Source of the DNA: an uncultured Lentimicrobiaceae bacterium
GTDB lineage: Bacteria; Bacteroidota; Bacteroidia; Bacteroidales; F082
Direction: 5' to 3'
Assembly (NCBI GenBank): GCA_964470665.1
Contig: CAYYDS010000002.1
Span: 1 to 37,879 of the forward strand
DNA length: 37,879 bases
A model generated the notes under the pieces. That model saw only the letters and a list, made by a program, of their open reading frames with translations. It did not search any database and had not been told where the DNA came from. Shown here one piece after another: positions 1-20,952 of the stretch (positions are counted from its first letter, which is position 1; every line of letters starts with the position of its first letter). Position numbers and translations under genes: made by a program.

Positions 1-165
1 TCCGTTTCTGCAAGCAAACAATCTGGGGATGTTACAGAATCTATCAGTAGGAATTATTCCCTAAATGGTACTTGTAATCCCCCAGCTTCTGTAACAGCCA
101 CATTTACAGAGGCTTTTAACACAGCTGTAAGAGCAGATATTATTAACCTTGCAAAGGCTCTTTAG
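1..165 (+). CDS. 3' end of an unidentified protein gene (partial, enters from left edge)
   Basis: Frame 1 is open from base 1 to TAG 163-165 (...TEAFNTAVRADIINLAKAL*). The stop abuts the next start (TAGTATG). Less AT-rich than the rest of the window. Confidence 0.6.
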   Translation, partial: SVSASKQSGDVTESISRNYSLNGTCNPPASVTATFTEAFNTAVRADIINLAKAL

Positions 166-166
166 T

Positions 167-649
167 ATGAAAGCAGGTAATCTATATAAGATACAAGAGT
201 TAATTAACAATATTAACCTTAAAGGTGCAAACAAGGACTTCGCTCTTTCATTAATGAAAACAAGAATAAACCTTATTCCTCATGTAAAAGGAATTAATGA
301 AAAATTAGAACAGGCACATAAAGATGCTTTTCCTGAGGATTATCGTGCAAGGGAGGAAAAGTATAATGAAGCTGTGAAGGAATACCAAGCTGCAAAAGAA
401 AAGGGTGAGAATATTTCTAAATTAGAGAGGAAAGTCTCTAAACTTTATGATGATATATCTCCAGAAATGCAATCTAATAATAATACTTATAATGAATTGG
501 TTAAAACCATTTTTGATGAGGATATAGAGGTTGCTATATTTCCAGTCACTTTAGAAGATTTACTTCAAGCTATTGAAAAGACAGACAGGATATCTTACAT
601 AAATGCTGAGCACATTGAAGCTTTAGAGAAAATATGTAAGGTTGAATAA
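167..649 (+). CDS. hypothetical helical/coiled-coil protein, 160 aa
   Basis: ATG 167 two bases after the upstream TAG; the track ORF 149..649 starts at a TTG that overlaps the upstream gene. TAA stop 647-649. No TGA and no Trp codon. E/K-rich helical composition. Confidence 0.75.
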   Translation: MKAGNLYKIQELINNINLKGANKDFALSLMKTRINLIPHVKGINEKLEQAHKDAFPEDYRAREEKYNEAVKEYQAAKEKGENISKLERKVSKLYDDISPEMQSNNNTYNELVKTIFDEDIEVAIFPVTLEDLLQAIEKTDRISYINAEHIEALEKICKVE

Positions 650-911
650 CTACAACTATAAATTTATAGGGGTCACAACAAATTACTTTAAACGGAAGTA
701 ATCAATTAGTTACAATAGAAAGCGAGAATATATTAACTGATATTCCATATAGTACAGAAAAAGCTATCGTAGAAATTACTGGACTTGATAGTTGAGAGGT
801 AAATTTACCAGCTAATTATGTAGGATAATAACTAACATATAATTAGTATAAACAGATATACTGAAGAAATAGATAATTCGATTAAACAAAAAATCAAATT
901 TTTAAAATCAC

Positions 912-1310
912 ATGTTAGAATTTTTAATTAATAATTGAGTGCAATTATCTACTACTTTAGGTATTATAATAGCCTTCTTTGTCGAGCGGAAGAAACGGCG
1001 TGCAGAATCAGATGAAGCCCAATCTTCCGCCTTAACAAAGATGCAGACAGCGTATGATAAATTTGTCACAGACAGTAATAAAAAAATAGATGAATTATTA
1101 GAAAGAATTAAAGAATTAGATAAACTAGTTGAGATATATAGAAAAGAAAAAAATGAATTGACTGAGAAAATAGAAAGTTTAGAAAAACAATCAACCGATG
1201 ACCAAAGAACAATAGAGGAATTTGGTGAAAAAATAAAGTCTCAAGATAGATTAATCAAAGAACAAAAACGAAGAATAGGTACTTTAGAAGAACAAATAAA
1301 AAGAATATAG
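912..1310 (+). CDS. single-pass membrane protein with long coiled coil (spanin-like or holin-regulator-like; lysis-module candidate), 132 aa
   Basis: ATG 912, with in-frame TAA at 903 upstream. Track ORF 939..1310 begins just after in-frame TGA 936-938. With TGA=Trp the N-terminus is MLEFLINNWVQLSTTLGIIIAFFVERKKRR (hydrophobic helix plus positive cluster), followed by heptad-like E/K-rich sequence. TAG stop 1308-1310. Confidence 0.7.
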
Positions 1311-1312
1311 TT

Positions 1313-1606
1313 ATGATATTTGAAATAATTAAATTAGTCGGTTGAAGTATTGTGTTAATACTATTAGGTATTTTTAAAGGAACAATTCCTCTTAAACATT
1401 TTTATTCAATGCTTTGTTCTACCATTTTAATGCTATATGTTATTATAGATGGTATAATTAGTCATCAGATTTACGATTTATATGTGCGAGATTTTGGCAA
1501 TATAGCTATAATTATAACCTTTATTTTTTATATATTTAATTATTCTAAAGAATTTGATTGAATAGAGGATTATAAAGCTGGTAAAAAAGGATTAAAAATT
1601 GATTAG
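1313..1606 (+). CDS. small 3-TM membrane protein (class I holin-like), 97 aa
   Basis: ATG 1313 two bases after the previous stop. In-frame TGA at 1343-1345 and 1559-1561; TAG stop 1604-1606. Three hydrophobic segments (LVGWSIVLILLGIF, MLCSTILMLYVIIDGII, GNIAIIITFIFYIF) and a charged C-terminal tail. Confidence 0.65.
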
Positions 1607-1628
1607 ATATATTCCCCTTTTAAAACAA

Positions 1629-1835
1629 ATGCTTATGAACAAAAAACAAATTTTAAGATCAATTGCACTATTTTTCATAGTGTTCATTCCATTTATCGCA
1701 GGGATAGTCTGTAAAGAACTATCAAACAATCTTTTTGAAATTATAATTGGTTGGTCAACAATGGCTATCCAAGTAGGAGTAGGAATATGATTGTTACGCA
1801 AAGATCCTAAAAAGATTAAAGAAAAAACTGAATAA
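1629..1835 (+). CDS. small 2-TM membrane protein with basic C-terminus (class II holin-like), 68 aa
   Basis: ATG 1629 (alternative TTG 1599 overlaps the previous gene). In-frame TGA 1788-1790; TAA stop 1833-1835. TM1 SIALFFIVFIPFIAGIV, TM2 LFEIIIGWSTMAIQVGVGIWLL, then RKDPKKIKEKTE. Confidence 0.65.
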
Positions 1836-1914
1836 TTCAGTTTAGATTAAAAAGTTGCAGATTAAATATAATTTTTCAATTAAAAAGATAATTTATAATA
1901 AATTTTTAGATTTA

Positions 1915-1968
1915 TTTGGAATATTGAGAAATTATATTTAATTTTGCAACAATGAATTAATGTTTAAT
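1915..1968 (+). promoter_or_regulatory. Bacteroidota-type promoter P1: TTTG(-33)-N20-TAATTTTG(-7) plus downstream AATGTTTAAT box
   Basis: TTTG 1915-1918, 20-nt spacer, TAnnTTTG 1939-1946, 12 nt, AATGTTTAAT 1959-1968. Sits in the 151-nt non-coding gap before gene 1987. Geometry is identical to P2 at 20899-20952. Confidence 0.6.
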
Positions 1969-1986
1969 ATATAAAAGAAAAAAGCA

Positions 1987-2373
1987 ATGGTAAATTTAGA
2001 GTTATTAAATTTTCAACAGATTCTTTCCAATAGTAAAACTAAAGGGATTGATCACGAAGATTCCATTAAATGGATTAAGATTAAAAGAGAATGGACAAAG
2101 AAGATTGAAGAGTTTCAAGAAATTAATAAAGAATTAGTATCAACTAATAATATTAAAGTTTCTGATTCTGGAAAAATTGATACAGATAATACAAGTAAAG
2201 AAGATTTGTCTAATTACAATAAATCTTTTTCTAAGCTATTAACCGAAGAAATTACTTTTTCAACAATAGGTAAATTGAAAACTGATACTATTTTTACATT
2301 AAGAGATTTAAATGATTGGGATAGTGAAGTATTAGATTTAATATTGAAAAATTTTGGTAATGAACTAGAATAA
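1987..2373 (+). CDS. hypothetical protein, 128 aa
   Basis: ATG 1987, TAA stop. First gene after P1. All 3 Trp are TGG; no TGA. Confidence 0.75.
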   Translation: MVNLELLNFQQILSNSKTKGIDHEDSIKWIKIKREWTKKIEEFQEINKELVSTNNIKVSDSGKIDTDNTSKEDLSNYNKSFSKLLTEEITFSTIGKLKTDTIFTLRDLNDWDSEVLDLILKNFGNELE

Positions 2374-2378
2374 ATACT

Positions 2379-2666
2379 ATGCAAACAACAAACATTACAA
2401 CAAACGTTAATTGTACACACGTAATTGACGGAATTAATATAAATATAAATTACAGTTTTAATGCGTCTGCTCCAATAACAATTAGAGTAGACTGTAATAA
2501 ATCAAGTGAAGGAGTTTATATTAATGTAAATAGAGAGTATTCTGCTAATGGCACTTATACTCCTACACAATCTTCTAAACCTTTTGGTGAAGAATTTGAT
2601 ACAAAACTAGCTACTTTAATGATAGCTGTTTTTGAAAATTATACCGATCCTTCCTTGGTTCAATAA
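2379..2666 (+). CDS. hypothetical protein, 95 aa
   Basis: ATG 2379 five bases after the previous stop; TAA stop. No Trp codons. Confidence 0.65.
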   Translation: MQTTNITTNVNCTHVIDGINININYSFNASAPITIRVDCNKSSEGVYINVNREYSANGTYTPTQSSKPFGEEFDTKLATLMIAVFENYTDPSLVQ

Positions 2667-2691
2667 AAACAAATAAATAAAATGAATTAAT

Positions 2692-3735
2692 ATGTCAAAT
2701 GGATTAGATTTCTACGGATTAGATGATCAATTACAATCTATAGTAGAGCCAACTGAAAAAATTCCCGTTCAAGAGGGAACAATAGAACCACATATTACAG
2801 ATCCTCAGATACAATACGATGATGACGATTTAATCGGAAGAGTATTATTATCAAAAGGAATTTCAGATTTTAATAAAATAAAATTTGAAAATGATAATGG
2901 TGAGATAGAAGAAAAAAACTGAAATGATTTATCAATAGATGAACAATTCAATATAATAAATTCTTCAGATGTAGATCAAGATTACGGGTTAGACGATGAT
3001 GAGATTAATCTTATTAATGTAATAAGATCAAATAATATGACAGTTGATGAGTTTATCAACGTTGTACGAAATCAATCTCAAACTCAACCAGAAGAACTCG
3101 ACCAATTCACAATAGACCAATTTTCGGATGATGAATTGTACGTAACAGATATGCAAGCAAAATTTCCTGATTTAACAGAAGAAGAAATTTTAAATTCTTT
3201 AGAACATGATAAATCAAATTCGGCATTATTTGATAAAAAAATGAATAATTTGAGAAATGAATACAAAGAATTAGAAAGATTGAAAATAGAACAGGAATTG
3301 GCTGAACAAGAAGCAGCTTTTCAAGAACAGCAAGAAATATTTCAAAATTCTGTAGTTGAAGCTCTTAATAATATTAATACTAGTACTATTGGAGGTTTTC
3401 AATTAGATTTGAGCGATAATGATATGCAAGGGATTTACGATTTTCTAACTCAAACAGATAGAGGAAACGTAAGATATTTAGCAAAAGCGTTAAATGATCC
3501 TAATACTCTTGTTAAGATGGCATGGTTTGCTATTAAAGGAGATGAAGCATTACAGGATATTAAAAACTATTATAGTAGAGAAATATCATCTGTGGCTAAA
3601 ACAAATTACGAAAAAGGTCTCTTAGACGGTAAGAAACAACAATCTGGAACTTTATTCGTAACAAATAATAAAAATAATAATAAAAGTACAGGTGGAGTAA
3701 AATCCCACAGTACTCTTTTTAAAGACGACTTTTAA
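2692..3735 (+). CDS. acidic coiled-coil protein, scaffolding-protein candidate, 347 aa
   Basis: Track ORFs 2692..2922 and 3037..3735 share frame 1 and are joined through TGA 2920-2922 with no TAA/TAG between. Very acidic N-terminal half, coiled-coil stretch (EYKELERLKIEQELAEQEAAFQEQQEIFQ). Lies directly upstream of the capsid-sized gene. Confidence 0.55.
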
Positions 3736-3749
3736 AATTAATAAAAATT

Positions 3750-5171
3750 ATGTTAGTAGCAAATTTTACAACCGTAAGACCAACAATGGGTGATACCCGT
3801 ACATATGCAGACTTTACTAAATTCTTGGGTGATAAACCTACTAGATTAGGTATTGTAGCTAGTATGTATGAAGATAATACCCTTACATATTTAACTGAAT
3901 CTCTTAAAAACATTGTGTACATGAGTGCAAAATCTGACGAAAAATATCGTAAGATTAATTCAATGTATTTTGAGTGGGAAGTTAAAAATGCTCAGATTAA
4001 AAGAATTGCATTTGCAGCAGTCCCTACTGATAATGGAGCAAATGGTTCTGAAATAGATATGGTATTTACTGAAAATTATTTCCAGAAATACGATATATTT
4101 AAAATAGAAAAAACTAGACAACAGTGTATTGTTCTTTATAGACCTATTAGAATTAGTGACGCATCTTGGAAAGTAACTGTACGTTTGATCGATAATGATT
4201 ATCGTAGCGTGCTTGATACATCTGGTTGTCAAATTGGTGATACTTGTGTATTCCAGTCAGTAGCTATGCCTGAAATGCATGAAGAAGGTTACGCAAAATA
4301 TCAAAGTTCTATCGAAAGACATCGTGGTTATATTACTACCCATCGTGTTGATGATAGTTGGTCAGCAGTTTATGCAGCTACCGAAGATATGTTTGTTCGT
4401 ATAGCAACAGGAAGTGATGAGAAAGATAAAAAAGAATCTGTATATCAAATGAATAGTAAAGAAAAAGATTTGTTAGACAATTTCATGTTCGTTAAGAATA
4501 GTGGACTTTTGTTTAATAAAACTAACGTAGATGCTAATGGTAGAGTTACTATTAGTGATCCCGATACTAATCGTCCTATTTACATTGGTGATGGTGCTAT
4601 TCCTCAGATTGAAAGATTTGCTGATAAATATGGTTATAATAACTTAACCGTAGATGTACTTCAGACAGTTCTTTCTATGATGAATGGAAAATCTGAGTCT
4701 CCTACTGGAAACCATTACGTATTTTTATGTAATGATAAATTCTGGACTGACGCTCAGAAGAAACTTCTCTCTTATCTTTCAGCATTTCAAGCTGACGGTA
4801 CATATTTGTGGTCAAAGGTAGAAAACGATTATATCAAAGTAGGTGCTACTTTTGATTCTTATGTTTTCGGTGGAAATACAATTAGTTTCAAAGTAGATAG
4901 AACTTATTCTAGAGAATATGGTTCAAATAAAGGATTCGCTACTTGCTTTAACTTAACTAAAGATAAAACTTCAGGAACTCCTGCTATTGAAATGTTTACA
5001 TTGAAAGGTGGAGACTTTATTACAAATAAGTTTGTAGGTGTTGGGGGTTATGATGGTTTGACATCAGGTTTAGTTTCTAGTGCTGTTGCTGGATCAAAAC
5101 TTATATATTGGGGATATAGCGGAATCGCCGTTTACAATCCTTATAGATCATTTATACTTTTTGAAGTGTAG
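3750..5171 (+). CDS. major capsid protein candidate, 473 aa
   Basis: Uninterrupted 473-aa ORF. Less biased codon usage; 6 TGG and 0 TGA. Tandem TAG-TAA stops, followed by a strong hairpin terminator. Positioned after the scaffold-like gene. Assigned from size, position and expression signals, not from a recognised motif. Confidence 0.55.
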   Translation: MLVANFTTVRPTMGDTRTYADFTKFLGDKPTRLGIVASMYEDNTLTYLTESLKNIVYMSAKSDEKYRKINSMYFEWEVKNAQIKRIAFAAVPTDNGANGSEIDMVFTENYFQKYDIFKIEKTRQQCIVLYRPIRISDASWKVTVRLIDNDYRSVLDTSGCQIGDTCVFQSVAMPEMHEEGYAKYQSSIERHRGYITTHRVDDSWSAVYAATEDMFVRIATGSDEKDKKESVYQMNSKEKDLLDNFMFVKNSGLLFNKTNVDANGRVTISDPDTNRPIYIGDGAIPQIERFADKYGYNNLTVDVLQTVLSMMNGKSESPTGNHYVFLCNDKFWTDAQKKLLSYLSAFQADGTYLWSKVENDYIKVGATFDSYVFGGNTISFKVDRTYSREYGSNKGFATCFNLTKDKTSGTPAIEMFTLKGGDFITNKFVGVGGYDGLTSGLVSSAVAGSKLIYWGYSGIAVYNPYRSFILFEV

Positions 5172-5187
5172 TAAATAAATAAGAAAA

Positions 5188-5230
5188 AGAAAGAAATTCT
5201 CTATGAATTTAAATAGAGAATTTCTTTTTA
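5188..5230 (+). terminator. intrinsic terminator hairpin after the capsid-sized gene
   Basis: Perfect inverted repeat AAGAAATTCTCTAT (5191-5204) / ATAGAGAATTTCTT (5213-5226), extendable by flanking A/T pairs. 8-nt loop GAATTTAA; runs into a T tract. Confidence 0.7.
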
Positions 5231-5246
5231 AAAAATATGAATTAAT

Positions 5247-6074
5247 ATGGAAAATGCAAGAAGAAACCTTATCGTTTTAAGAAGCGTATACCCTAAATCA
5301 GGAAATAAGATTATAACTAATCCAGTTAAAGATCCTAAAACAGGAAGATATCCCGATTGTGTTAAAGCAGTTAATAGTAATAATGATATGATATTAACTG
5401 ATAAAGAAATTAACAGTGGAAGATATTTTATAAAAGAAACTGAGATATTTGTATTAGAGGAAGGTAAAACGTTTGATTTATCAGATGAAATAGAATCAGC
5501 TCAATGAGATGCTGTTAAAAATAATCCTCTAATTGCTCCAGATCGTGATGCGAGAGATGCTCAAGGAAATCTAATTATAGATGGTGGAGAAACAAGATAT
5601 GGTAGAGCCGAGTTATATATTGAAAAACCTGGTTACGAATCACAGAAGAAAGTATCTAAGAAACGTTTAATTAAAGATGCGTTAACTTATATATTTGAAG
5701 ATAGTAATGAAGGATTAGTTACCAAATGTAAACTATTAGGTAAAAATATGAGTAATATTCCAATTCCTGATGTGCAGGATTATTTAATTGGAGTATCTGA
5801 GAAAAATCCCGAAATTATTATCGAATTATATACTGGAACAGATACTAATTTAAGATTGTTATTCGTGGAAGCTAAAGAAAAACGAGTAATATTTATAAAA
5901 GATAAACTATATATGTATGGAGAAGGTATAGTGTTGGGTGCTTCAGATAGTGCTGCAATTACTTGAATGAAAGAACCTAAAAATAAGAAAATGCTTAAGA
6001 TGATTGAGCAAGATACTTATCCTGATCTTTTTCCTGCAGAAGTAGTAGAAGAAAAAGCAAAAGACAAAAAATAA
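5247..6074 (+). CDS. hypothetical head-module protein, 275 aa
   Basis: Track ORFs 5247..5507 and 5748..5966 (frame 0) join through TGA 5505-5507 and 5964-5966. TAA TAA at 6072. No TAA/TAG in the gaps. Confidence 0.8.
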
Positions 6075-6080
6075 TAAAAA

Positions 6081-7313
6081 ATGACATCAAGACAAGTATA
6101 TGAAGCTACACTGATAGAGTGTAATCAAACATCTGCTACATCACTTTTGTTAGAAGATTATAATTATTTAATAAATAAAGCCATATATCAGTATATAGAT
6201 AAAAGATATAATTTGTATGATATTAATCAACAATTAAGTGATGATTTAAGAGTATTAAAAAGTACTTGTATATTAACTCCTACTTTGTCTGATGATTATC
6301 CTACTAATTCTATATTTGGTGCCACTTACGAAGTAAATTTACCAGACGATTATTTTCATGTACTTAATTGTATTTGTGAGTATAATATAACAAAACAATT
6401 TAAATGTTATGACGCCAATAGTAGATGAGCACAATCTGCTAAAAGATTAACTTCTGATATGTGGTCTCAAGTTATTAATAATGCTTATAATAAACCTAGT
6501 TATAGAAATCCTTATTTCTTTATTCATAATGTAAATTCTCAAATTGGTTTACCTACTAATTCTTATACTCCTCAAAGAGGAACAGATGTTAATCTAAGTA
6601 CTAGTAACTTTAGAGGTACTATTACTTGTACTACAGCTACTAATTTAACAATTAATGGTGAAACTGTTACAAATTTTATTGGAACAGGTAGTTATGAAGG
6701 AGCAACATCAGTAGATATTAGTAATAATACTATTAGTGGTGGAACTATGATTTTAGTTGGATCATTTACTGTAGTTACTGCTGATCAAAGTAGTATTGGT
6801 GAGTTTAGTGGAACAGCTACTGCTAGTGGACCTAACACTGTTTATTCTAATAATTCTGTTATTAAAATAAATGTTACATCTGCTGTATTAGTGAATAATA
6901 TTTATAGTAAAGAAGCTATTACACTAACTATTCCTCAAAATTCTATAACATTAGGTAATGGAAGTACTTTGAATACTGTTGAAAGAACAGGAGGTCATCG
7001 TTTCGGAAATGTAACAAGAGTACGATTAGAAATTAGATATGGAAAAGATAATTCTTTATTTCAATTAGATAAAGTGTATGTTGATTATTTAAAAACACCT
7101 CAACACATTAGATTAACACCACTTCAATTAGACACAACGGAAGATACTTCTCAAGTATTAGAATTTCCCGATTATGTCTGCCAAGAGATCATAAAAGAGT
7201 TAGTAATACTTGTTATGGAAAATTCAAGTAATCCTAGATTACAAACAAATATTCCTATTAATCAAGCAATTCCTTCTCAAACACAACAAACACAACAAAC
7301 ACAAAATAATTAA
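6081..7313 (+). CDS. hypothetical virion protein with T/S/G/N-rich insertion domain, 410 aa
   Basis: Track ORFs 6081..6428 and 6459..7313 (frame 0) join through TGA 6426-6428. The middle ~180 aa are Thr/Ser/Gly/Asn-rich and beta-like. C-terminus ends in (QTQ)x3 NN. TAA TAA stop. Confidence 0.8.
7278..7304 (+). repeat. 3 x 9-nt in-frame tandem repeat CAAACACAA (QTQ QTQ QTQ) at the C-terminus of gene 6081..7313
   Basis: Direct reading: caaacacaa caaacacaa caaacacaa, then aataattaa. Confidence 0.9.
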
Positions 7314-7318
7314 TAATT

Positions 7319-8128
7319 ATGTTTAATTTTACAACAACAACCGTTTTTAATACAGCAGATAGTTTTAGTGCAGTATCTGGTAAACTTACTGTAAAAGGTA
7401 TAGGTACTTTCAAAAAAAATGAAGCAGTTTTTAAGAAAACCGCAGGTGCTGCTGGAGTAGCTCCTGTTTTAACAGCAACACCTACTGGAAATGCTGACGC
7501 AACAACAGCAGGATTATATAGATTAACACTTAGTATTAAACTAGTAGATAGTATGGAAACTAGTTTTAATAATAGTTTATCAGATTCAACCAAAGTGTCT
7601 TATTTTGAATTTAATGTAGCTAATGGAGATACTGTCGCAGATATTAGTGAAAATATAGCAGATTTAGTTAATTTTAATCGTTTTGGTCCACAATCACTTG
7701 TGGTAGCCACACATACTGCTAATAAAGCTACTATTACTGGAGCTAATCCTTATTTAGTTTTCAACAATTATGTTATTGAGAAATATAACACAACTACTGA
7801 TATATGGGCTGCTTCGAGTTATATTACTTTAGGTTATACTCCCTCTTCTAGAGGTTTGGGTACTTATGAATTTTTGATTAAAAATATTGTATTACCTACT
7901 TCAGAAAATCTAAGATTTAGTGCCCCTGTTGGTGATATGCCAATTAAAGGTGCTACATATACACAATATGTTTTTACTCTTACTAAACCTAGAGTTGGAA
8001 TAGGATCATCCGTAGTTGGTGAGAAGAATACTTCTATTACTAAACACGTATGTTATGTTCTCTCTGGCGCTGTTACTACAACTGTAGATGGTCTTATTAC
8101 TACATCTACTATTGACGCAGAAGTGTAA
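7319..8128 (+). CDS. abundant structural protein candidate (decoration, auxiliary capsid or fibre-like), 269 aa
   Basis: Uninterrupted ORF with no TGA (single Trp is TGG). T/A/G/V-rich beta-like sequence. Followed by the only GC-rich hairpin terminator in the region. Confidence 0.6.
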   Translation: MFNFTTTTVFNTADSFSAVSGKLTVKGIGTFKKNEAVFKKTAGAAGVAPVLTATPTGNADATTAGLYRLTLSIKLVDSMETSFNNSLSDSTKVSYFEFNVANGDTVADISENIADLVNFNRFGPQSLVVATHTANKATITGANPYLVFNNYVIEKYNTTTDIWAASSYITLGYTPSSRGLGTYEFLIKNIVLPTSENLRFSAPVGDMPIKGATYTQYVFTLTKPRVGIGSSVVGEKNTSITKHVCYVLSGAVTTTVDGLITTSTIDAEV

Positions 8129-8158: not shown

Positions 8159-8195
8159 GGGCATCCCGTAAAAAGGGTGCCCACCTTTTCTTTTT
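8159..8195 (+). terminator. intrinsic terminator (GC-rich hairpin plus T tract)
   Basis: GGGCA(T)CCC 8159-8167 pairs with GGGTGCCC 8175-8182. 7-nt loop GTAAAAA, then ACCTTTTCTTTTT. Confidence 0.8.
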
Positions 8196-8223: not shown

Positions 8224-8889
8224 ATGTTATATAGTAAATTAGCTTCAGCAATATATAATGATATAGTATCTGGTTTATCTGGATATACTTCTGTTCCAAA
8301 CATTTCTATGGAGCAGTTAGAAGATGATATTGTAGATGAAAGACTAAAAGTAATTCAAGAAATAATGGTTTCTGGAAAATTACAGAAAGAAGATTTACTA
8401 TTGACTATACCTTGTATTAAAACAAATTGTGATTCAATAGATAAATGTAATAAATGTATTAATGATAATACAGCCAATAAATTTCCAACATTACATTTTG
8501 AAATACCACAATTTATATTAATTGATTATATTGGTTCAACGGATAAACAAAATCCATTTATAGTATATACTAATTTATATGAATGAAATTATCATAAATA
8601 TAGAAAAAGATTTCATAATAAACCAGTAGTTTTTGTAGATAGTACTCCTAATAGTAATAATTTCTGTGATTGTTGAGTATTTAATGCTCCTTTATTAAGA
8701 GAAGTTACAGTAATAGGGATATTTAAAGATGTAAAACAATTAGAATTTTATGGTTGTTGTCCAGATGAGGAAATACGTAATTTCACTTATATAGACAATG
8801 AAGTAAAAAAGAGATTAACTCAAAAGAAATTGATGTTTTATCGTCAATATTCTAAGCATGTTGAACCAAACGATCAAGCACCTAAATAA
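8224..8889 (+). CDS. Cys-rich hypothetical virion/neck protein, 221 aa
   Basis: Track ORF 8224..8586 continues in frame 1 through TGA 8584-8586 and a second TGA (about 8674) to TAA 8887-8889. Several Cys clusters (CIKTNCDSIDKCNKC, CDCW, GCCP). Confidence 0.75.
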
Positions 8890-9572
8890 TGAAGACTAAT
8901 GATTTTTATGCAGCGTTATATGAAGCAAATTTATTATACGGTATTACTTTATCTGATGATAAGTTTGAGGAAATAGGACTAATAGGTTGAAATAAAATAG
9001 GAAATAAATCTACTAGACTATATCATTATTTTACTACTCCAATAAATGGGGAAGTTGCTTTGCCATGTAATTGTGATATTATAGAAGCAGTTTGTTATAC
9101 TTTTGAATCTATTGAACATAATAAATTAGAATCTGGATTTAATAATGATTCTGGTAATACTGAACATTTTATTGAAGCACAAAAAATATTAAAAAATCCA
9201 TTATATATTAGTGGAGATTATGTAAAATATCGTGAGATAGGTGATTATATATATGTTGATGAAGATATTCCTTTACACATATTATACCATGGTGTTCAAT
9301 TAGATAATAGAGATTTACCTTATTTAAATGATCGTGAAGTAAGTGCTATAGCAGCATATGTTGCTTTTGTATTAGCTAGAAAAGAATATTATATTAATAT
9401 GAATAGAGAAGTATTACAAAAAGCAATGCATTTAGAAGCAGAATGAAAAAAATTATGTAATTTAGCTAGAGTACCAGATCATTTAAATCAAAATGATATG
9501 AACAATATTTTAGAAGCTAAATATAATTGAAATAGAAAGATATTTAACAAGTCATATAAACCTTTAAAATAA
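8889..9572 (+). CDS. hypothetical head-tail joining region protein, 227 aa
   Basis: ATG 8889 overlaps the previous stop (TAATG). Frame 0 through TGA 8988-8990, 9444-9446 and one more near 9528. TAA 9570-9572. Absorbs track ORF 9060..9446. Confidence 0.75.
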
Positions 9573-10040: not shown

Positions 10041-10664
10041 ATGAAAACAATCGAAGATTATTATGAACAAATGTATGAGTTATTTCCTACTCTTCCTAAA
10101 GAAGATGTAAGAAAAATAATGAGATATGGATGATCTAATTTAATGAGAGCACTTAGTTGAGGTTGTGATATTAATTTAACAAACGGTAGTTCTTTTCATT
10201 TTCATGTAGGACTATTATTTAAACATAGTTTAACTTGAGGTAAAGTATATATTCTGAAATTAGCTAGAAAATTTAGATTTATAGCTAAATTAAAAGATAT
10301 TCCTTGAGATGGATATTATTATTTTACTTTATCTCCAGAAAGACACGAAAAAATATTAAATCAACTAAAAAAAGATGGAACTCTTCATAAAAAGAAGAAA
10401 ATAAATTACGAAAATATAATGGTATATAAGTTAAAAGATGAAGCTATATTAAGAAGTATAGGACAACCTTATCTATATAGAATGAAAAGAATGTTAGATA
10501 TAGGTAATATTTTTTACTTTCCAGAGGTATTTGATAAAAATAAAATTGAATTTATGTATAAAATTGAATTACCTCCAACAATTACATCTAGACTTGTTAC
10601 TAATTATAAATATGAGACATTAGCATGAAAAAAACAGCAATCAACTCCTTTAATGAAGGTTTAA
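10041..10664 (+). CDS. hypothetical protein, 207 aa
   Basis: ATG 10041. Frame 0 passes through five in-frame TGA codons, the last at 10626-10628, to TAA 10662-10664. Absorbs track ORF 10419..10628. The last 12 codons overlap the next gene. If TGA 10626 terminates, the end would be 10628. Confidence 0.65.
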
Positions 10665-13600: not shown

Positions 13601-13741
13601 CAAGAATTACTATTAGATACTAGTGGATTAACTACGGAAAGTTATATGGTTACTGATTGTGTAACTAGTTATTTATCTCCACCTATTAGTGAACAGTTAG
13701 CAGATGCTGCTAAAATAACAACTTATAAAATTATAAATTAA
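10625..13741 (+). CDS. large tail structural protein, 1038 aa
   Basis: ATG 10625 within an ATGA junction. Frame 2 joins track ORFs 10826..11506 and 12122..12496 through about 12 TGA codons. I read both gaps and found no TAA/TAG. TAA 13739-13741. The N-terminus (NEGLNIDAYS...GGILYIVSYNPTNGHSEIGSF) resembles large phage tail/propeller-like proteins from memory only. Confidence 0.8.
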
Positions 13742-13742
13742 T

Positions 13743-16700
13743 ATGGCAACTTTTACTATAACTAATGGAGCATCATGAGAAAATCCTATTTTTAAATTAT
13801 CCGATTTACGGATATATTTAGAAAGAAAAGACTTATGTAATTATCCTATTAGTGGATTATTAGTAAATAAATATCGTCCATTTAATAATTTACGTAAATC
13901 TTCTGGAGAAATTGTTGAATTTAATACTAATAAATTAGATTTTGATATTACATCTCCAGTTGATATAACAATACAACCCTCTTATGATGGAACTGTTAAT
14001 TTAATATTAAATGATGATAAGAATAAACCACGATTAATTAATTCTAGATTTACAGTTTTAGAAAACAATCAATATTCTATTATTGATAGAGATGGTAATA
14101 ATGATACTAATATATATAATGATGATACTTTAGAAAATGAAGTATCTTTATATAAACAAAGTATCGCTATTCCTGATGTTTACTTTTTAGGATTGGCTCC
14201 AAATGGTAATATGAAAGTAGGAAATTATGTATTTTATTTTAAATACGTAGATGATGATGGAAATGAAACAGATTTTATTGAAGAATCTGGAATTGTGAGT
14301 TGTTTTATTGGTGAGTCACCAAGATCAATTAGAGGAGGAATTGATAACGAAAATAGTTTTAAATCTATATTATTTAGAATATTAAATTGTGATGCTAACT
14401 ATAATCAAATTAATGTTTATTATACAAGATCTACTTCTTCTGAAATAAGTGATGAAATAACAACAGCATATAAAATAAATAAATCTTATTCTGTTGTTAA
14501 TAGTAACTGTAATATTACAATAAGTGGTTATGAATCAATTACTCCTTTATCTATTAATGATATTAATTTACAATATAATATTGTAGATAAAGTTAAATCA
14601 CAAGAACAATTACAAAATGTTTTATTCTTCGCAAATACTAGTCAGGCTGAAATTGATTATGTAGAATTAGAAGATTTATCTTTACGCATACTACCAAAAG
14701 TAGTAATATCAGATGTTGAATTATCTTTAAATGTTGATTATATTAATACAGAAGGTTATTATAATCCAACTAATATATATTATAATTTAGGTTATTGAAA
14801 TTATGAAATATATCGTTTTGGGATAGTATATATTTTAAAAAATAATACACTTTCACCTGTATTTAATATTAGAGGTAGAAATGATTTAACAACTAATTCT
14901 GAGTATACTGCTTTTGCTTTAAAAGATTCAAATGAAAATAGACAATATATTGAATTAACAGACGATGGTCTAATTCATGGACAATATCCTTTAGAAAATT
15001 CTTTCGGAGTTGTTAGATTAAATCAATCTAATGTTGAAATAGATGATATATTAGGAATTAATTTTGAAATATCTAAAGAAGTATTAACAGAATTAAATAA
15101 ATACGTTAATGGTTATTTCTTTGTAAGACAAAAAAGAATACCTAGTATTTTATCTCAAGCTTTAGTTATTGGTTATGATAATGAATCAAAATTACCAGTA
15201 ATTCCTTTTAATGATAATAAATATTATATTGAAAGTTTTTTAAATAGTGATCAAACACTATCTCATAATTTTTCAGAACATAAACATGAGGTTAAAAAAC
15301 CATCTGCTTCTACAGCAATTTGTCCAGATTATACACTAAATCGTTTATTTTTAGATAATTATTTTACTGGAGACAAAATTAAAATTAGATATTCTGATCA
15401 TCAACCATCATCTAATAATCCTATAACTGTTGGTTATACTGATAGATTATTTATGATTGAAAATTATAATATTTCAACAGATGATATTTTTCAAACTATT
15501 CATATAAAAGGAGTTTCTGAAGATACTTCTATTTGTATGTTAAACAATATGGAGTTTAAAAGCAGAGCTGGTGAAAGGGAACAAGTTGATTTATTTGAAT
15601 ATATTAATAACGAATCTATTGATTCAAAGACAAACAATATTGTTAGAGGTTCATTTAATTCTTATTTAGGTTTGTCTAAATATTATGGAACTTTATTAAA
15701 GTTTATAGACATTTATGTTCCTGGATATGATTTAAAATATATGAATAATTATTTTACTGAAAGACAAAATGATAGTTCACCATATTATGCTATAAGTAAA
15801 CGAACAAAATTAGTTATTCCAGTAAACAATAATTCAATTACATACGATTGTTATCGAGGAGATTGTTTTATATGTAATTATACACATAGAATGAATTGAA
15901 ATTTTCAAGATCCTGAAACTCCTATTAACGATAGAATATTAAAACCATATTCTTGAAAAGAGAATTATGTAAAAGGCGATAATGAAAAAATAGCTAAAAT
16001 AAATAGAGCTGATATAAATGCTGTAAATTTAGGACATTGAATTACTTTTAAAGTAAGAAGTTCTAATAATATTTCTTTACGTTGTGAAGATATATCAAAT
16101 CCTGCAGAAGAAGCAGTAAACGGACATCCAAGAACATTTTATCCATATCGTGAAGTATCAGCAAGTTCAGCATATAATGTTCCAGAATCATATGTATTAA
16201 ATAAAGGATATAATTCTACTACTTCCGATAGATATAACGTAATGTTACCTCGTGTACCTTATTTGAAGAATTATTTTCATACTAGAATTTCATACTCTAA
16301 TGTTGCAATAACAGATGCTTTCGATAATGGATTTAGAACATTTAGAGGTACAGCTTATAGAGATTATCCGATTAATTATGGAGGAATTACTAAGATAGTT
16401 TCTTGGTTTAATTCACTCATTTGTGTATTTGAACACGCAGTTGGTATAATTCCAGTAAACGAAAGATTGCTTTCCGCCCAAGGTGTTGGTGGGAATGTCT
16501 ATATTAACACTCAAAATCTGCTCGCAGAGAACGTAACTATTATCAATGATACCTTTGGTAGTCAGTGAGCAAATTCTGTCATTAAAACGCCAAATTTTAT
16601 TTATGGTATAGATACCACAAATAAGAAAATATGACGAACAAATGGTACAAGTTTTGAAACTATATCTGATTTATCTGTTCAAAAGTTTCTTAACGATAAC

Positions 16701-18224
16701 ATTACTTTACAAAATAATGAATTAACTACTATTATCGGAATACGAGATGTATCTACTCATTATAATAAAACCAAAGGAGATGTGATGTTTACTTTTTATG
16801 ATACTTTATCAACTAATAAATACAATGTTACATTAGAAGAAAAAGTATGACATCTTTGTTATAATGAATTATTAAAAAAGTGAATTACTTTTTACTCGTG
16901 AGTTCCGTTATTATCTTCTAATATTTATAATTACTTTTATTCTTTTGATAGAGAACAAAGTAAGAATTTATCATACTTATATTTACAAAATCCTAATATC
17001 TACTTAGATACAATAAATAGGATATTATTAAATAGTAATAATAAAATAACAAATAATAGATTTTATCATCAAAATTATGTTATAGATCCAGAAAGTACTG
17101 ATAATGAGTTAATTTATAGAAAAGATATTAATAATACTATTAGTTATACTTTTGAATCAGATTTTGAAGATAATTATAAGAAAGTAAAATTTGATAAAAA
17201 TACTGGTTGTATTGTATTTAGAGACGGAGAAAGTGGTGATAATTTAAGATTAATTATAACGGTTAAAAATAATAACGGATCTCCTTTTTCCTCAACTGTT
17301 TTATTTAATAAAACAGATATACAATTATCTTTATATAAACATGGAGGATTAAATAATAAACCATCTAACTGATATGGTAAACAACATCCTTTTGAGATAG
17401 AATTTACAGTAATTGATGCTGAAAGTATACACAAAATATTTGAAACAATGAATATTATTTCAAATAAAGTTGCTCCCGAATCATTTCATTATAAATTACT
17501 AGGTGAACAATTATCTTTTAATCACGAATTACCAACAATGTTTTGGAGACAAGAAGCGTGAAATAATATATTACAATTAAATGGTAAAAATTTAATATAT
17601 AATAAATATTATGAACAAATGAATGTTCCTATTCAAGAAGAAGGTATTGTAAGATCTACAATTTTTCCATTATATTATTTTAATTTTCAACCATACGATG
17701 TGGTATATAATAATTATCAACTAAAGACAGACAATCCTATATATAATTATGCTAATTTATCTGGAACAAATATTAGTTTTGATGGTAAATACTTTTATTT
17801 AAACGTACACTGTTTAGCTGTTGATGCGGCAGTACATGGTAGATTAAGAGGAAATATTCATTATAAAAATGATTATTGATCTGTTCAAATACCAAGTATT
17901 AATTTTGTACAAAGTAATGAAAGTAGTTGAAGTATAGGAAATAGTACTAAATTACCAACATTATATACAAGATTATGTAATGTACCATATAGTAGCCATA
18001 GTAATGAAAATACTTTAAACATTACAAAATTACCTAAAAAATTAACAGAAATGGGATATAGTATTAATCCATTAAAAGGATTTAATATAAATGATGATTG
18101 AAATATTGATACAAAAAGATATGAGTGTAATATTAGAGACAAATATTTAAAAGTAAGATTAAGATATGATGGAAGTAAATTAACATTTATTTCTGCGATA
18201 ATAACAACATTTAATACGATTTAA
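13743..18224 (+). CDS. very large tail protein, possibly P22 gp10 / 'stabilisation protein'-like, 1493 aa
   Basis: ATG 13743. Frame 0 joins track ORFs 14193, 15453, 16242 and 17619 through about 15 TGA codons; all gaps read with no TAA/TAG. TAA 18222-18224. Motifs QPSYDGTVNLILNDDKNKPRLINSRF, GNYVFYFKYVDDDGNETDF and GYFFVRQKRIPSIL match my recollection of stabilisation-type tail proteins of Bacteroidota phages (unverified). Confidence 0.8.
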
Positions 18225-20284: not shown

Positions 20285-20862
20285 TGGAATTAGAAGTAAA
20301 CGGAAAAGAATACGATGTTAAGGTAGCTAAAACAGACGAAGAAAGAGAAAAAGGTTTATCTGATATTAAAAGTTTACCAAAAGATGAAGGAATGTTATTT
20401 GTATTTGATACTCCAGAAGAAGTATCTTTTTGAATGAAAGATACACTTATTCCATTAGATATTATATTTATAGACAAAAATAAAAAAGTAATAAGAACGT
20501 ATGCCGGTATTCCTAATGATGAAACTTTTTTAACAGAAGATAATGTATTATATGTTTTAGAAGTAAATATTAATTCAGGCATAATTAGTGGTGATGAAAT
20601 AGAATTTGAATTAGATGAAGAATCCGATGATGATAATAAATATGTTTTAAAAATATTAAATCAAGATGGATCTGTTCAAATGAACTTAGAAGGAGGAGAA
20701 AGAATTTTTAGTAGAAAACATTCAAAACGAATTATAGAGTTAGCTAAAAAAGCTGATCTATCTAAATCAGATAAAGATTACAGATCATTAGGAAGAACTA
20801 TTTTAAAGTATATTGATATTCAAGAAAATGCCGATCCCGAATATGTAGATATTAAAAAATAG
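20284..20862 (+). CDS. DUF192-domain protein with acidic/basic C-terminal extension, 192 aa
   Basis: ATG overlaps the previous stop (TAATG). N-terminal ~105 aa carry the DUF192 (COG1430) pattern: EREKGLSD...DEGMLFVF...FWMKDTLIPLDIIFID...YVLEVN...GDEIEF. The W of FWMK is TGA 20431-20433. TAG stop 20860-20862. Confidence 0.8.
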
Positions 20863-20898: not shown

Positions 20899-20952
20899 TT
20901 TGGTAATTAGGAAAATACTTGTTACCTTTGTAATTAATGATAAATGTTTAAT
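20899..20952 (+). promoter_or_regulatory. Bacteroidota-type promoter P2: TTTG-N20-TACCTTTG plus AATGTTTAAT box
   Basis: TTTG 20899-20902, 20-nt spacer, TAnnTTTG 20923-20930, 12 nt, AATGTTTAAT 20943-20952. Same spacings as P1. Lies in the 132-nt non-coding gap before gene 20995. Confidence 0.6.

What the first reader, a model, noticed from the sequence alone, without database searches (positions are those of the whole stretch)
1987..8128. Bimodal Trp codon choice: probable high-abundance genes are TGA-free while neighbours use TGA for most Trp
The unit from P1 to the first terminator (1987-5171) has 10 TGG and 1 TGA. The capsid-sized gene alone has 6 TGG and 0 TGA (FEWEV, ASWKV, DSWSA, KFWTD, YLWSK, IYWGY). 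Gene 7319-8128 uses TGG for its only Trp. The tail gene 13743-18224 has about 15 TGA and 2 TGG. Given the strong AT pressure and the roughly 4:1 TGA preference elsewhere, six of six TGG in one gene is unlikely by chance. Two readings fit. Suppression of TGA may be limiting or costly, so the most highly translated genes avoid it. Alternatively these genes must be translatable before the recoding machinery is active, which would be a temporal gate.
Basis: seen in the sequence. Interest (0 to 1): 0.75.

Follow-up and report, generated by a model that had tools for sequence, protein, structure and literature searches.

The report
Abundant capsid proteins avoid recoded TGA
In this gut phage, which reads the stop codon TGA as tryptophan, the two proteins made in the largest numbers (the capsid shell protein and its partner) avoid TGA while low-copy tail genes use it almost exclusively, and related phages that recoded TGA or TAG separately show the same pattern, which suggests that reading a recoded stop codon carries a cost.

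Summary
The window holds 110 in-frame TGA and 22 TGG. The major capsid protein (MCP, 3750-5171) has 6 TGG and 0 TGA (leave-one-out binomial P=4e-6; about 6e-4 after adjusting for the gene's G-ending preference).

The window is the late structural module of a 26.7% GC, TGA=Trp crAss-like phage related to the Zeta group. Gene 7319-8128 is a structural homologue of the crAss001 auxiliary capsid protein gp36 (AUX), which is present 1:1 with MCP.

The pattern recurs in relatives. Across 16 dereplicated recoded lineages (5 TGA, 11 TAG), the recoded share of Trp or Gln codons is 4% and 8% in MCP, 0% and 1.4% in AUX, and about 32-86% in ring, tail and muzzle genes. The Mantel-Haenszel odds ratio is 0.038 (P=7e-31). 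The depletion holds at ancestrally conserved W and Q sites.

The best explanation is mutation-selection balance. Decoding a recoded stop in a standard-code host is costly, so it is purged in proportion to translation flux. A strict temporal gate is disfavoured, because MCP keeps 1-4 recoded codons in several lineages and the gene just upstream of MCP (2692-3735) needs TGA decoding.

The decoding machinery is not in the window. I did not find this within-late-module depletion described in the papers I could search.

The parts
1915..1946 (+). Bacteroides-type promoter-like motif (TTTG-N20-TAnnTTTG) in the 151-nt gap upstream of g1987.
   Evidence: there are 4 matches in the window, no more than chance overall, but 2 of the 4 fall in the rare intergenic gaps (this one and 20899-20930). 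The consensus comes from my own knowledge of Bacteroides promoters. Function is inferred.
1987..2373 (+). g1987, a 128-aa protein of unknown function with 3 TGG and 0 TGA.
   Evidence: P=3e-3 alone, not robust to multiple testing. The only detectable orthologue (L049 lineage, 50% identity) has 1 TGA and 1 TGG. There is a weak match to phrog_13237, of unknown function.
2692..3735 (+). g2692, a 347-aa acidic protein encoded directly upstream of MCP. It may be the scaffolding protein (my guess from composition and position, untested). It has 1 TGA (codon 77, nt 2920-2922) and 1 TGG.
   Evidence: the TGA aligns with TGG-Trp in 38 of 44 relatives. The recoded share is intermediate in relatives (TAG 51/257, TGA 6/14). 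No Pfam or PHROG match.
3750..5171 (+). Major capsid protein (MCP). It has 6 TGG (codons 76, 140, 204, 332, 354, 454), 0 TGA, and a TAG stop codon.
   Evidence: Pfam PF23898 Crass_capsid at 44.1 bits and phrog_11589. Codons 76, 140, 332 and 454 are Trp in at least 45 of about 47 relatives, codon 354 in 34 of 47, and codon 204 is Tyr in 45 of 47. NNC preference is raised in every relative (0.46-0.48 against 0.22-0.37).
5190..5227 (.). 15-bp perfect palindromic hairpin followed by a T-run, 19 nt after the MCP stop codon.
   Evidence: Its role as a terminator or mRNA-stabilising element is inferred.
5247..6074 (+). g5247, a conserved 275-aa head-module protein with 2 TGA and 0 TGG.
   Evidence: both TGA codons sit at positions that are TGG in 46 of 46 relatives. 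In other recoded lineages this family is mostly depleted (TGA 2/10, TAG 11/68), so the window is the exception.
6081..7313 (+). g6081, a 410-aa head-module protein with 1 TGA and 1 TGG.
7319..8128 (+). Auxiliary capsid protein (AUX, homologue of crAss001 gp36) with 1 TGG and 0 TGA.
   Evidence: AlphaFold2 model from a 34-sequence alignment (pLDDT 69.8, pTM 0.63). The top Foldseek hit is 7qof_a (333 aa, crAss001 icosahedral capsid; E=8.5e-6, probability 1.0, TM 0.49). The third hit is 7qoh_e, a 267-aa chain of the crAss001 unique-vertex reconstruction. Some homologues carry a C-terminal BACON domain. Recoded share in relatives: 0/5 TGA and 1/73 TAG.
8159..8182 (+). G+C-rich hairpin (8 pairs, 6 of them GC) followed by a T-run, 31 nt after the AUX stop codon. 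It looks like an intrinsic terminator and marks the boundary between the TGA-poor head block and the TGA-rich tail block.
   Evidence: The block 1987-8128 has 4 TGA and 12 TGG. The block 8224-37879 has 102 TGA and 9 TGG.
8889..9572 (+). Ring-protein-1 homologue, a low-copy tail-barrel protein, with 3 TGA and 0 TGG.
   Evidence: The L049 orthologue carries a weak precomputed hit to PF24228 CrAss_Ring_1. All three TGA codons sit at positions that are TGG in 36-40 of 40 relatives.
13743..18224 (+). Muzzle protein (tail tip) with 15 TGA and 2 TGG.
   Evidence: Pfam PF25731 crAss_MUZ at 83 bits. Eleven of the 15 TGA codons align with TGG-Trp in the relatives that reach those positions.

Best explanation
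The window is the late structural module of a very AT-rich, TGA=Trp crAss-like phage related to the Zeta group. Its hosts are, by inference, standard-code Bacteroidota.

Strong G-to-A mutation pressure has converted about 95% of Trp codons to TGA in low-copy virion genes (ring, tail, muzzle). Each TGA must be read by suppression machinery that is not in the window. This is presumably a phage tRNA-Trp(UCA), possibly helped by interference with release factor 2. Such decoding would be slower or less complete than TGG read by the host tRNA-Trp(CCA).

The fitness cost of a TGA (lost full-length protein, wasted synthesis, truncated subunits) scales with the translation flux through the gene. Selection therefore keeps TGG in the two proteins made in about 500 copies per virion, MCP and its 1:1 partner AUX. 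It partly keeps TGG in other head genes and is too weak to resist drift in proteins needed at around a dozen copies or fewer.

Shown here: the counts, the gene identities, the recurrence across separate TGA and TAG lineages, and persistence at conserved sites. Inferred: the host's code, the suppression machinery, its inefficiency, and the actual expression levels.
For: 1. Window counts: MCP 6/6 TGG against a 110:22 TGA:TGG background. At positions that are Trp in relatives, neighbouring genes have TGA at 24 of 25 sites and MCP at 0 of 5 (Fisher P=4e-5).

2. Identity: the TGA-free genes are the two most abundant virion proteins. crAss001 has nine MCP and nine AUX per asymmetric unit of a T=9 capsid (PMC10172136).

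3. Recurrence: of 130 related loci, 76 use the standard code, 32 are TAG-recoded and 23 TGA-recoded. On the MCP tree, recoded clades are interleaved with standard-code ones.

4. Pooled counts (recoded/standard) over 16 dereplicated recoded lineages. TGA lineages: MCP 1/23, AUX 0/5, g10041 11/2, g10625 24/7, MUZ 16/3. TAG lineages: MCP 15/168, AUX 1/72, g8224 27/34, g10041 25/14, MUZ 39/22.

5. The direction is the same in all 11 lineages that have tail data. The Mantel-Haenszel odds ratio is 0.038 and the Cochran-Mantel-Haenszel P is 7e-31.

6. Depletion holds at sites conserved as W or Q in standard-code relatives: 1/21 against 20/38 (P=2e-4) and 11/117 against 40/86 (P=3e-9).

7. TAG is G-ending, and MCP in TAG lineages prefers G-ending codons (0.54) yet avoids TAG. 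The effect is therefore specific to the recoded stop and is not a GC3 effect.

8. MCP shows the classic NNC preference of highly expressed genes in every relative.

9. AUX evolves fast (25-34% identity to the window protein) yet is the most depleted family, so protein conservation is not the cause.

10. Whole record MT835492: the TAG-recoded domain runs from about 60 to 121 kb. Typical genes there have 0.42-0.80 TAG among Gln codons, against 0.17 for MCP and 0.13 for AUX.

11. Host inference: the relative OLOE01000004 is listed as Zeta group, code 11, host Bacteroides xylanisolvens (Yutin 2021 supplement).
Against: - No expression, proteomic or ribosome-profiling data exist for this phage. Abundance is inferred from homology to crAss001.
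- No suppressor tRNA, release factor or TrpRS lies in the window or in any fetched locus. Incomplete suppression is therefore assumed, not shown.
- The base after sense TGA codons does not differ from background (p=0.52). There is no sign of selection for weak-termination contexts, which competition with release factor 2 might predict.
- The correlation between NNC bias and recoded share over 11 families has the right sign but is not significant (rho -0.51, p=0.11).
- In this window g5247 has 2 TGA and 0 TGG, although its family is depleted elsewhere.
- TGA-free tail-fibre-like genes lie upstream in L049 and L053 (30 and 8 TGG, 0 TGA). They are not high-abundance genes and need a separate explanation, probably import from standard-code genomes.
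- Two of the six peptide patterns used to retrieve relatives contain Trp, which could bias MCP towards TGG at those two sites. Without them MCP is 1/11 against 20/38 (P=0.014). AUX and the TAG lineages are not affected.
Confidence: 0.65

Rival explanations
1. Temporal gate or code independence. MCP and AUX are kept readable in the standard code because the shell proteins must be made before, or independently of, the switch to TGA decoding. The remaining virion and lysis genes are held back by their TGA codons.
For: In this window MCP and AUX are fully standard-code compatible, and each is followed by a hairpin. The published model holds that recoded stops delay late and lysis genes, and that integrases avoid them for timing reasons (Borges preprint). 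MT835492 shows a standard-code-compatible island at MCP inside the recoded domain.
Against: - Depletion is graded and not absolute. MCP has a TGA at the invariant W140 in the sister lineage L049 and 1-4 TAG in seven TAG lineages and in MT835492. In those phages MCP needs suppression too.
- Gene 2692-3735, just upstream of MCP, and the head genes between MCP and AUX carry TGA at conserved Trp sites.
- TGA is already used in the small genes upstream of the head unit (912-1835).
Confidence: 0.12
2. Fidelity or assembly poisoning rather than yield. Recoded stops are decoded ambiguously (wrong amino acid or truncation). Lattice-forming proteins cannot tolerate defective subunits, because one bad copy can spoil a capsid of about 500 subunits. 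The codon is therefore purged from shell proteins whatever the translation cost.
For: The two depleted families are exactly the two lattice-forming shell proteins. Large low-copy tail and muzzle proteins of the recoded block tolerate very high recoded shares.
Against: The available data cannot separate this from the flux-cost model. The intermediate depletion of non-lattice head genes (g2692, g5247) fits a continuous abundance effect better.
Confidence: 0.1
3. Recent import. The MCP gene, or the head block, was acquired by recombination from a standard-code relative and has not yet drifted to TGA.
For: MCP has a higher GC3 than its neighbours (0.19 against about 0.1). Module exchange does occur next door: the window and L053 are 99.4% identical from position 839 onwards and unrelated upstream. 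The upstream tail-fibre-like genes in L049 and L053 are TGA-free.
Against: - No relative has an MCP more than 67% identical, apart from near-identical strains, among 5.8 billion proteins.
- The closest MCP is that of the same TGA-recoded sister lineage that is closest for most neighbouring genes.
- The raised GC3 is mainly an NNC preference shared by MCP in all relatives.
- Import would have had to happen separately in about 16 lineages, and for AUX as well.
Confidence: 0.04
4. Chance or plain composition. Six Trp codons is a small sample, and the gene simply has more G-ending codons.
For: After adjusting for gene-level G-ending use, the window-only evidence falls to about P=6e-4. AUX has a single Trp codon.
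Against: The permutation p for heterogeneity is 1e-5. Across lineages the Cochran-Mantel-Haenszel P is 7e-31. In the TAG lineages the avoided codon is itself G-ending.
Confidence: 0.03

Closest known systems
Stop-codon recoding in crAss-like phages, especially the Zeta group (Yutin et al. 2021, PMC7886860; Borges et al. preprint 10.1101/2021.08.26.457843; Peters et al. 2022, PMC9523058)
   Same: TGA is read as Trp (or TAG as Gln) in the late structural and lysis module of phages that infect standard-code Bacteroidota. The code switches between TAG, TGA and standard at short phylogenetic distance. MCP genes are split by introns in some members. Genomes run to about 145-192 kb. All of these are seen in the relatives fetched here.
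   Different: Those papers describe a two-domain pattern (early genes standard, late genes recoded) and test which families are enriched for recoded codons (lysis genes, a tail tube). In the texts I could search I found no description of depletion in MCP and AUX inside the late module, graded with virion copy number. The window lineage is also unusually AT-rich (26.7% GC) and close to saturated with TGA.
Avoidance of in-frame recoded stops by integrase families in the temperate recoded phages Garnet and Topaz (Borges preprint)
   Same: A specific gene family within a recoded genome is significantly depleted in the recoded codon relative to its standard synonym.
   Different: Integrases are early or lysogeny genes that must be translated in the host's code before any switch, which is a timing argument. 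Here the depleted genes are late virion proteins, and the depletion tracks abundance.
Translational selection on synonymous codons in highly expressed genes (classical codon-adaptation theory; my own knowledge)
   Same: The strength of codon bias scales with expression. MCP shows the NNC preference typical of highly expressed genes in all relatives.
   Different: The disfavoured 'synonym' is a reassigned stop codon. Its decoding depends on machinery supplied during infection and may compete with a release factor.
Host-wide code 4 in Mycoplasmatota and their phages (my own knowledge)
   Same: TGA is read as Trp, and AT pressure favours TGA over TGG.
   Different: In those organisms release factor 2 is absent and the whole genome uses TGA. 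Here close relatives use the standard code or read TAG as Gln, TGA-free blocks with many TGG codons lie next door, and relatives are assigned to Bacteroides hosts.
PhicrAss001 virion architecture (Bayfield et al. 2023, PMC10172136)
   Same: Homologues of MCP (gp32), AUX (gp36), ring protein 1 and the muzzle protein lie in the same relative order as in the window.
   Different: crAss001 uses the standard code. Sequence identity is too low for phmmer to detect. The copy numbers used here are borrowed from crAss001, not measured for this phage.

Membership tests
Crassvirales (crAss-like phages) | Major capsid protein of the Crassvirus MCP family | tested here: met
   PF23898 Crass_capsid at 44.1 bits against a cut-off of 27. 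The precomputed annotation of the same protein agrees.
Crassvirales (crAss-like phages) | Crassvirus-specific tail parts: muzzle protein and ring proteins | tested here: met
   PF25731 crAss_MUZ at 83 bits for 13743-18224. CrAss_Ring_1 is only a weak precomputed hit on the L049 orthologue of 8889-9572.
Crassvirales (crAss-like phages) | Auxiliary capsid protein with the gp36 fold | tested here: met
   The top Foldseek hit is 7qof_a (E=8.5e-6, probability 1.0, TM 0.49) for a model of moderate confidence (pLDDT 69.8).
Crassvirales (crAss-like phages) | Conserved TerL, portal, primase and virion RNA polymerase genes | not testable with these tools
   These genes were not identified in the 37.9-kb window. 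The rest of the genome could not be retrieved.
Zeta group of crAss-like phages (Yutin 2021) | Phylogenetic placement with named Zeta genomes | tested here: inconclusive
   The MCP is 65% identical to that of OLOE01000004 (L058), which Yutin's supplement lists as zeta_1. The window plus L049 lineage branches outside the sampled standard-code Zeta cluster. No formal multi-gene tree with other crAss families was built.
Zeta group of crAss-like phages (Yutin 2021) | Code switching (TAG, TGA, standard) at short distance, intron-split core genes, genomes of 145-192 kb | tested here: met
   All three hold for the relatives: 76 standard, 32 TAG and 23 TGA loci; MCP split into 2-4 pieces in L040 and L042-L047; many contigs of 164-239 kb. 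The genome size of the window phage itself is unknown.
Phage that reads TGA as Trp in a standard-code host (Borges/Ivanova type) | In-frame TGA at conserved Trp positions, and no TGA used as a stop codon | tested here: met
   alignment to TGG-Trp; stop codons are TAA 19 times and TAG 4 times.
Phage that reads TGA as Trp in a standard-code host (Borges/Ivanova type) | Phage-encoded suppressor tRNA, release factor or tRNA synthetase | not testable with these tools
   No tRNA was found in the window or in 22 related loci. MT835492 has 5 tRNAs and none is a suppressor, but the record is probably incomplete.
Phage that reads TGA as Trp in a standard-code host (Borges/Ivanova type) | Host uses the standard code | not testable with these tools
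   This is inferred only. A Zeta relative is assigned to Bacteroides xylanisolvens, there is a Bacteroides-type promoter motif, and TGA-free blocks lie in sister contigs.

The most novel reading that the evidence does not exclude
Recoded stop codons in these phages are mostly non-adaptive passengers. Mutation pressure fixes them wherever translation flux is low enough, and selection purges them where flux is high. If so, the gradient from AUX and MCP through other head genes to tail genes, repeated across separate TAG and TGA recodings, is a quantitative read-out of a persistent per-codon cost of suppression in infected cells. The popular view of recoding as a designed timer for late genes would then explain little of where recoded codons sit.
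Probability: 0.3. Interest if true: 0.65.

Novelty: new variant of a known kind. Interest (0 to 1): 0.5.

Why it matters
Why phages recode stop codons is an open question. Proposals include a lysis timer, an anti-host weapon, and drift.

This result adds a simple, testable regularity. Within the recoded late module, the recoded codon is avoided in proportion to how many copies of the protein a virion needs. This holds in lineages that recoded TAG and TGA separately. It implies that reading a recoded stop still carries a cost during infection, and that the most heavily made late proteins are not the targets of any code-based gate.

There is also a practical point. MCP genes in these phages stay intact under the standard code. 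MCP-based screens for recoding will therefore miss recoded genomes, while MCP remains a reliable marker for finding them.

Tried and rejected
- **Base after sense TGA.** It does not differ from the base after other NNA codons (chi-square p=0.52), so there is no sign of selection for a leaky context.
- **NNC bias against recoded share.** The Spearman correlation over 11 families has the right sign but is not significant (rho -0.51, p=0.11 for TAG lineages; -0.47, p=0.17 for the window).
- **tRNA scans.** None found in the window or in 22 loci. MT835492 has five tRNAs and no suppressor.
- **Recovering the rest of the genome.** The exact-protein look-up of g167 found nothing. The MCP look-up returned only a 16.4-kb Logan contig lying inside the window. 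A 30-mer from the window end is absent from IMG/VR.
- **Sequence searches of PDB.** MCP, AUX and an AUX profile all found nothing.
- **First AlphaFold model of AUX.** Built from 7 sequences, it was too poor to use (pLDDT 41.9). The second, from 34 sequences, was usable.
- **Pfam and PHROGs on the small head genes.** No matches.
- **Strain polymorphism.** The differences between the window and L053 include none at Trp codons.
- **g1987 and g167 as paralogues.** They are not.
- **Sigma-70 promoter scan.** Uninformative: 76 found against 73.7 expected.
- **Import of MCP from a standard-code relative.** Rejected on phylogeny and recurrence.
- **Host-wide code 4.** Considered and rejected, because close relatives use the standard code or read TAG as Gln, and TGA-free blocks rich in TGG sit in sister contigs.

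Full report
**Observation.**
Under table 4 the window resolves into 24 co-directional ORFs that cover nearly all of it. Under table 11 the same ORFs break up at TGA. I recounted every Trp codon.

- The unit 1987-5171 has 10 TGG and 1 TGA.
- Gene 7319-8128 has 1 TGG and 0 TGA.
- Gene 13743-18224 has 15 TGA and 2 TGG.
- Window-wide there are 110 TGA and 22 TGG. Outside the unit the counts are 109:12.

The leave-one-out binomial probability of 6/6 TGG is 4.2e-6. A permutation test for heterogeneity among genes gives p=1e-5.

The capsid gene also has a higher GC3 and more G-ending two-fold codons than the downstream genes. I therefore fitted TGG use against each gene's G/(G+A). After that adjustment P(6/6) is 5.9e-4, and a term for the two capsid genes is still needed (likelihood-ratio p=0.0015). 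Within the window alone it rests mainly on one gene.

**What the window is.**
TGA codons align with TGG-Trp that is invariant in standard-code relatives, and no gene ends in TGA, so TGA is read as Trp.

- Gene 3750-5171 is a Crassvirus major capsid protein (MCP; PF23898, 44 bits).
- Gene 13743-18224 is the Crassvirus muzzle protein (PF25731, 83 bits).
- The orthologue of 8889-9572 carries a weak Ring_1 hit.

Relatives were fetched from IMG/VR, metagenomes, Logan, ENA and GenBank. They are colinear with the window from 2692 to at least 35681. One of them, OLOE01000004, is listed by Yutin et al. as a Zeta-group crAss-like phage with code 11 and host Bacteroides xylanisolvens.

The window is therefore the late structural module of a Zeta-related crassvirus. 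Its lineage is unusually AT-rich (26.7% GC). Apart from near-identical strains, its closest MCP among 5.8 billion proteins is 67% identical. That MCP belongs to a sister lineage (L049-L052) that is equally AT-rich and also TGA-recoded.

**Identity of the TGA-free genes.**
No sequence search identified the product of 7319-8128. An AlphaFold2 model built on 34 homologues (pLDDT 69.8) has as its best PDB match chain 7qof_a. This is the 333-residue chain of the crAss001 icosahedral capsid (E=8.5e-6, probability 1.0). The third hit is a 267-residue chain of the crAss001 unique-vertex reconstruction.

The length and context of 7qof_a identify it as gp36, the auxiliary capsid protein (AUX). In crAss001 the asymmetric unit of the T=9 capsid holds nine MCP and nine gp36 (PMC10172136).

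Each is followed by a hairpin with a T-run (5190-5227 and 8159-8182). The second hairpin marks a sharp boundary. The block 1987-8128 has 4 TGA and 12 TGG. The block 8224-37879 has 102 TGA and 9 TGG.

**Comparative test.**
Of 130 related loci, 76 use the standard code in this region, 32 read TAG as sense and 23 read TGA as sense. On the MCP tree, recoded clades are interleaved with standard-code ones, so recoding arose or changed several times.

I dereplicated the recoded loci at 93% MCP identity into 16 lineages. I then counted recoded against standard synonyms inside the regions aligned to each window protein.

| Family | TGA lineages (recoded/standard) | TAG lineages (recoded/standard) |
|---|---|---|
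| AUX | 0/5 | 1/72 |
| MCP | 1/23 | 15/168 |
| g5247 | 2/8 | 11/57 |
| g2692 | 6/8 | 51/206 |
| g6081 | 5/4 | 42/132 |
| g8224 | 5/4 | 27/34 |
| R1 (ring protein 1) | 10/15 | 17/26 |
| g10041 | 11/2 | 25/14 |
| g10625 | 24/7 | 20/43 |
| Muzzle | 16/3 | 39/22 |

In all 11 lineages with tail data, MCP plus AUX is lower than the tail group. The Mantel-Haenszel odds ratio is 0.038 and the Cochran-Mantel-Haenszel P is 7e-31.

In the one relative available as a long record (MT835492), the genome splits into a standard-code half and a TAG-recoded half. Inside the recoded half, typical genes have 42-80% TAG among Gln codons. MCP has 17% and AUX 13%.

**Controls and rivals.**

- *Conservation.* At sites where at least 80% of standard-code relatives have W or Q, MCP plus AUX still show 1/21 against 20/38 for TGA (P=2e-4), and 11/117 against 40/86 for TAG (P=3e-9). 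In the window itself, neighbouring genes have TGA at 24 of 25 sites that are Trp in relatives, and MCP at 0 of 5. AUX is one of the fastest-evolving families yet the most depleted.
- *Composition.* TAG is G-ending, and MCP in TAG lineages prefers G-ending codons, yet it avoids TAG. The effect is specific to the recoded stop.
- *Import.* The window's MCP is closest to that of the sister lineage that is also closest for most neighbouring genes. It is not nested among standard-code MCPs. Import would have to recur in every lineage, and for AUX too.
- *Retrieval bias.* Two of the six search peptides contain Trp. Leaving those two sites out gives 1/11 against 20/38 (P=0.014). AUX and the TAG lineages are unaffected.
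- *Temporal gate.* MCP carries a TGA at the invariant W140 in the sister lineage, and TAG at conserved Gln sites in L031. It has 1-4 TAG in several lineages. Gene 2692-3735, just upstream of MCP, has a TGA at codon 77 in the window. MCP is thus not kept strictly independent of the code switch.

**Mechanism.**
The best-supported account is mutation-selection balance. AT pressure pushes TGG to TGA, and in TAG lineages C-to-T changes push CAG to TAG. These changes become synonymous once the stop is reassigned.

[quoted passage not shown] If that decoding is slower or less complete than decoding of the ordinary codon, the cost of each recoded codon scales with translation flux. Selection then wins in MCP and AUX (about 500 copies each per virion by homology), partly wins in other head genes, and loses in proteins needed at around a dozen copies or fewer.

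MCP independently shows the NNC preference of highly expressed genes in every relative (0.46-0.48 against 0.22-0.37).

The steps that are inferred and not shown are the host's code, the nature and efficiency of the suppression machinery, and the expression levels. One direct prediction of release-factor competition, enrichment of weak-termination contexts after sense TGA, was not seen. I cannot separate a yield cost from a fidelity or assembly-poisoning cost.

**Relation to what is known.**
Uneven use of recoded stops in phage genomes is established in three respects: early genes are standard and late genes recoded, lysis genes are enriched, and integrases are depleted.

I did not find the within-late-module depletion of the major and auxiliary capsid proteins, or its gradient with copy number, in the papers I could search (and the texts read). 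One paper on an unrelated TAG-recoded group notes in passing that TerL and the tape-measure protein carry TAG, while listing MCP among the proteins analysed. The final published version of Borges et al. was not available to me.

The principle behind the pattern, codon selection scaling with expression, is classical. I therefore rate this as a new variant of a known kind with moderate interest. It qualifies the timer model and suggests that many recoded codons are tolerated rather than useful.

**Limits.**

- The window is a fragment, and neither the rest of the genome nor the decoding machinery was recovered.
- Copy numbers are borrowed from crAss001.
- Counts per lineage are small for Trp.
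- Lineages share ancestry, so the pooled P-values overstate independence, although the direction is unanimous.
- The TGG use of g1987 (3/3) is not conserved and remains unexplained.
- TGA-free tail-fibre-like genes upstream in sister contigs show that abundance is not the only route to a TGA-free gene.

Noticed in passing
window 1-839, compared with L053 1-2102: The window and the ENA contig L053 are 99.4% identical over window 839-7137 and unrelated upstream of about 839. L053 encodes tail-fibre-like proteins there (8 TGG, 0 TGA, GC3 0.21-0.28). In the sister lineage L049, three upstream genes have 30 TGG and 0 TGA, and one has a Shufflon_N-like domain. This looks like a module-swap hot spot receiving genes from standard-code genomes.
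   Followed up: partly
L040, L042-L047 and several of L100-L126 (MCP region): The MCP genes of many relatives are split into 2-4 pieces separated by 1-2 kb. This matches the group I introns reported for Zeta-group MCP genes. The exons are also poor in recoded codons.
   Followed up: partly
window 912-1835: Three small ORFs encode proteins that look, by eye, like transmembrane or coiled-coil proteins (132, 97 and 68 aa). They lie directly upstream of the head unit and may form a lysis cassette. They use TGA (4 TGA, 1 TGG), in line with reports that lysis genes are recoded.
   Followed up: no
window 1915-1946 and 20899-20930: Bacteroides-type promoter motifs (TTTG-N-TAnnTTTG) fall in two of the few intergenic gaps. 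The motif is not enriched window-wide (4 found against 3.2 expected).
   Followed up: partly
window 20284-20862: A DUF192 (PF02643, 90.6 bits) protein is encoded inside the tail and cargo module and is conserved in L001 and MT835492.
   Followed up: no
window 26898-35681: A giant 2927-aa ORF (24 TGA, 2 TGG) has a P-loop (GVAGSGKST) and a DEYTW motif in its middle. It may be a packaged cargo enzyme. It is 27% identical to a 1540-aa ORF of MT835492.
   Followed up: no
window 10625-10664: Genes 10041-10664 and 10625-13741 overlap by 40 nt in different frames. The same overlap appears in the gene calls for L049.
   Followed up: no
MT835492.1 (L131-L133): This 121.6-kb record is standard-code from 1 to about 60 kb and TAG-recoded from about 60 kb to the end. 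Its five tRNAs (Asn, Asp, Met, Tyr, Ala) include no suppressor. The record is unannotated in GenBank.
   Followed up: partly
homologues of window 7319-8128 (P0129-P0141): Some AUX homologues are about 390 aa long and carry a C-terminal BACON domain (PF13004). This suggests a surface-exposed carbohydrate-binding decoration on the capsid.
   Followed up: no
window 5169-5171; L049 9368-9370 and 12736-12738: MCP ends in TAG in the window and in the sister lineage L049, and AUX ends in TAG in L049. Most genes end in TAA (19 TAA and 4 TAG in the window). I have no explanation.
   Followed up: no
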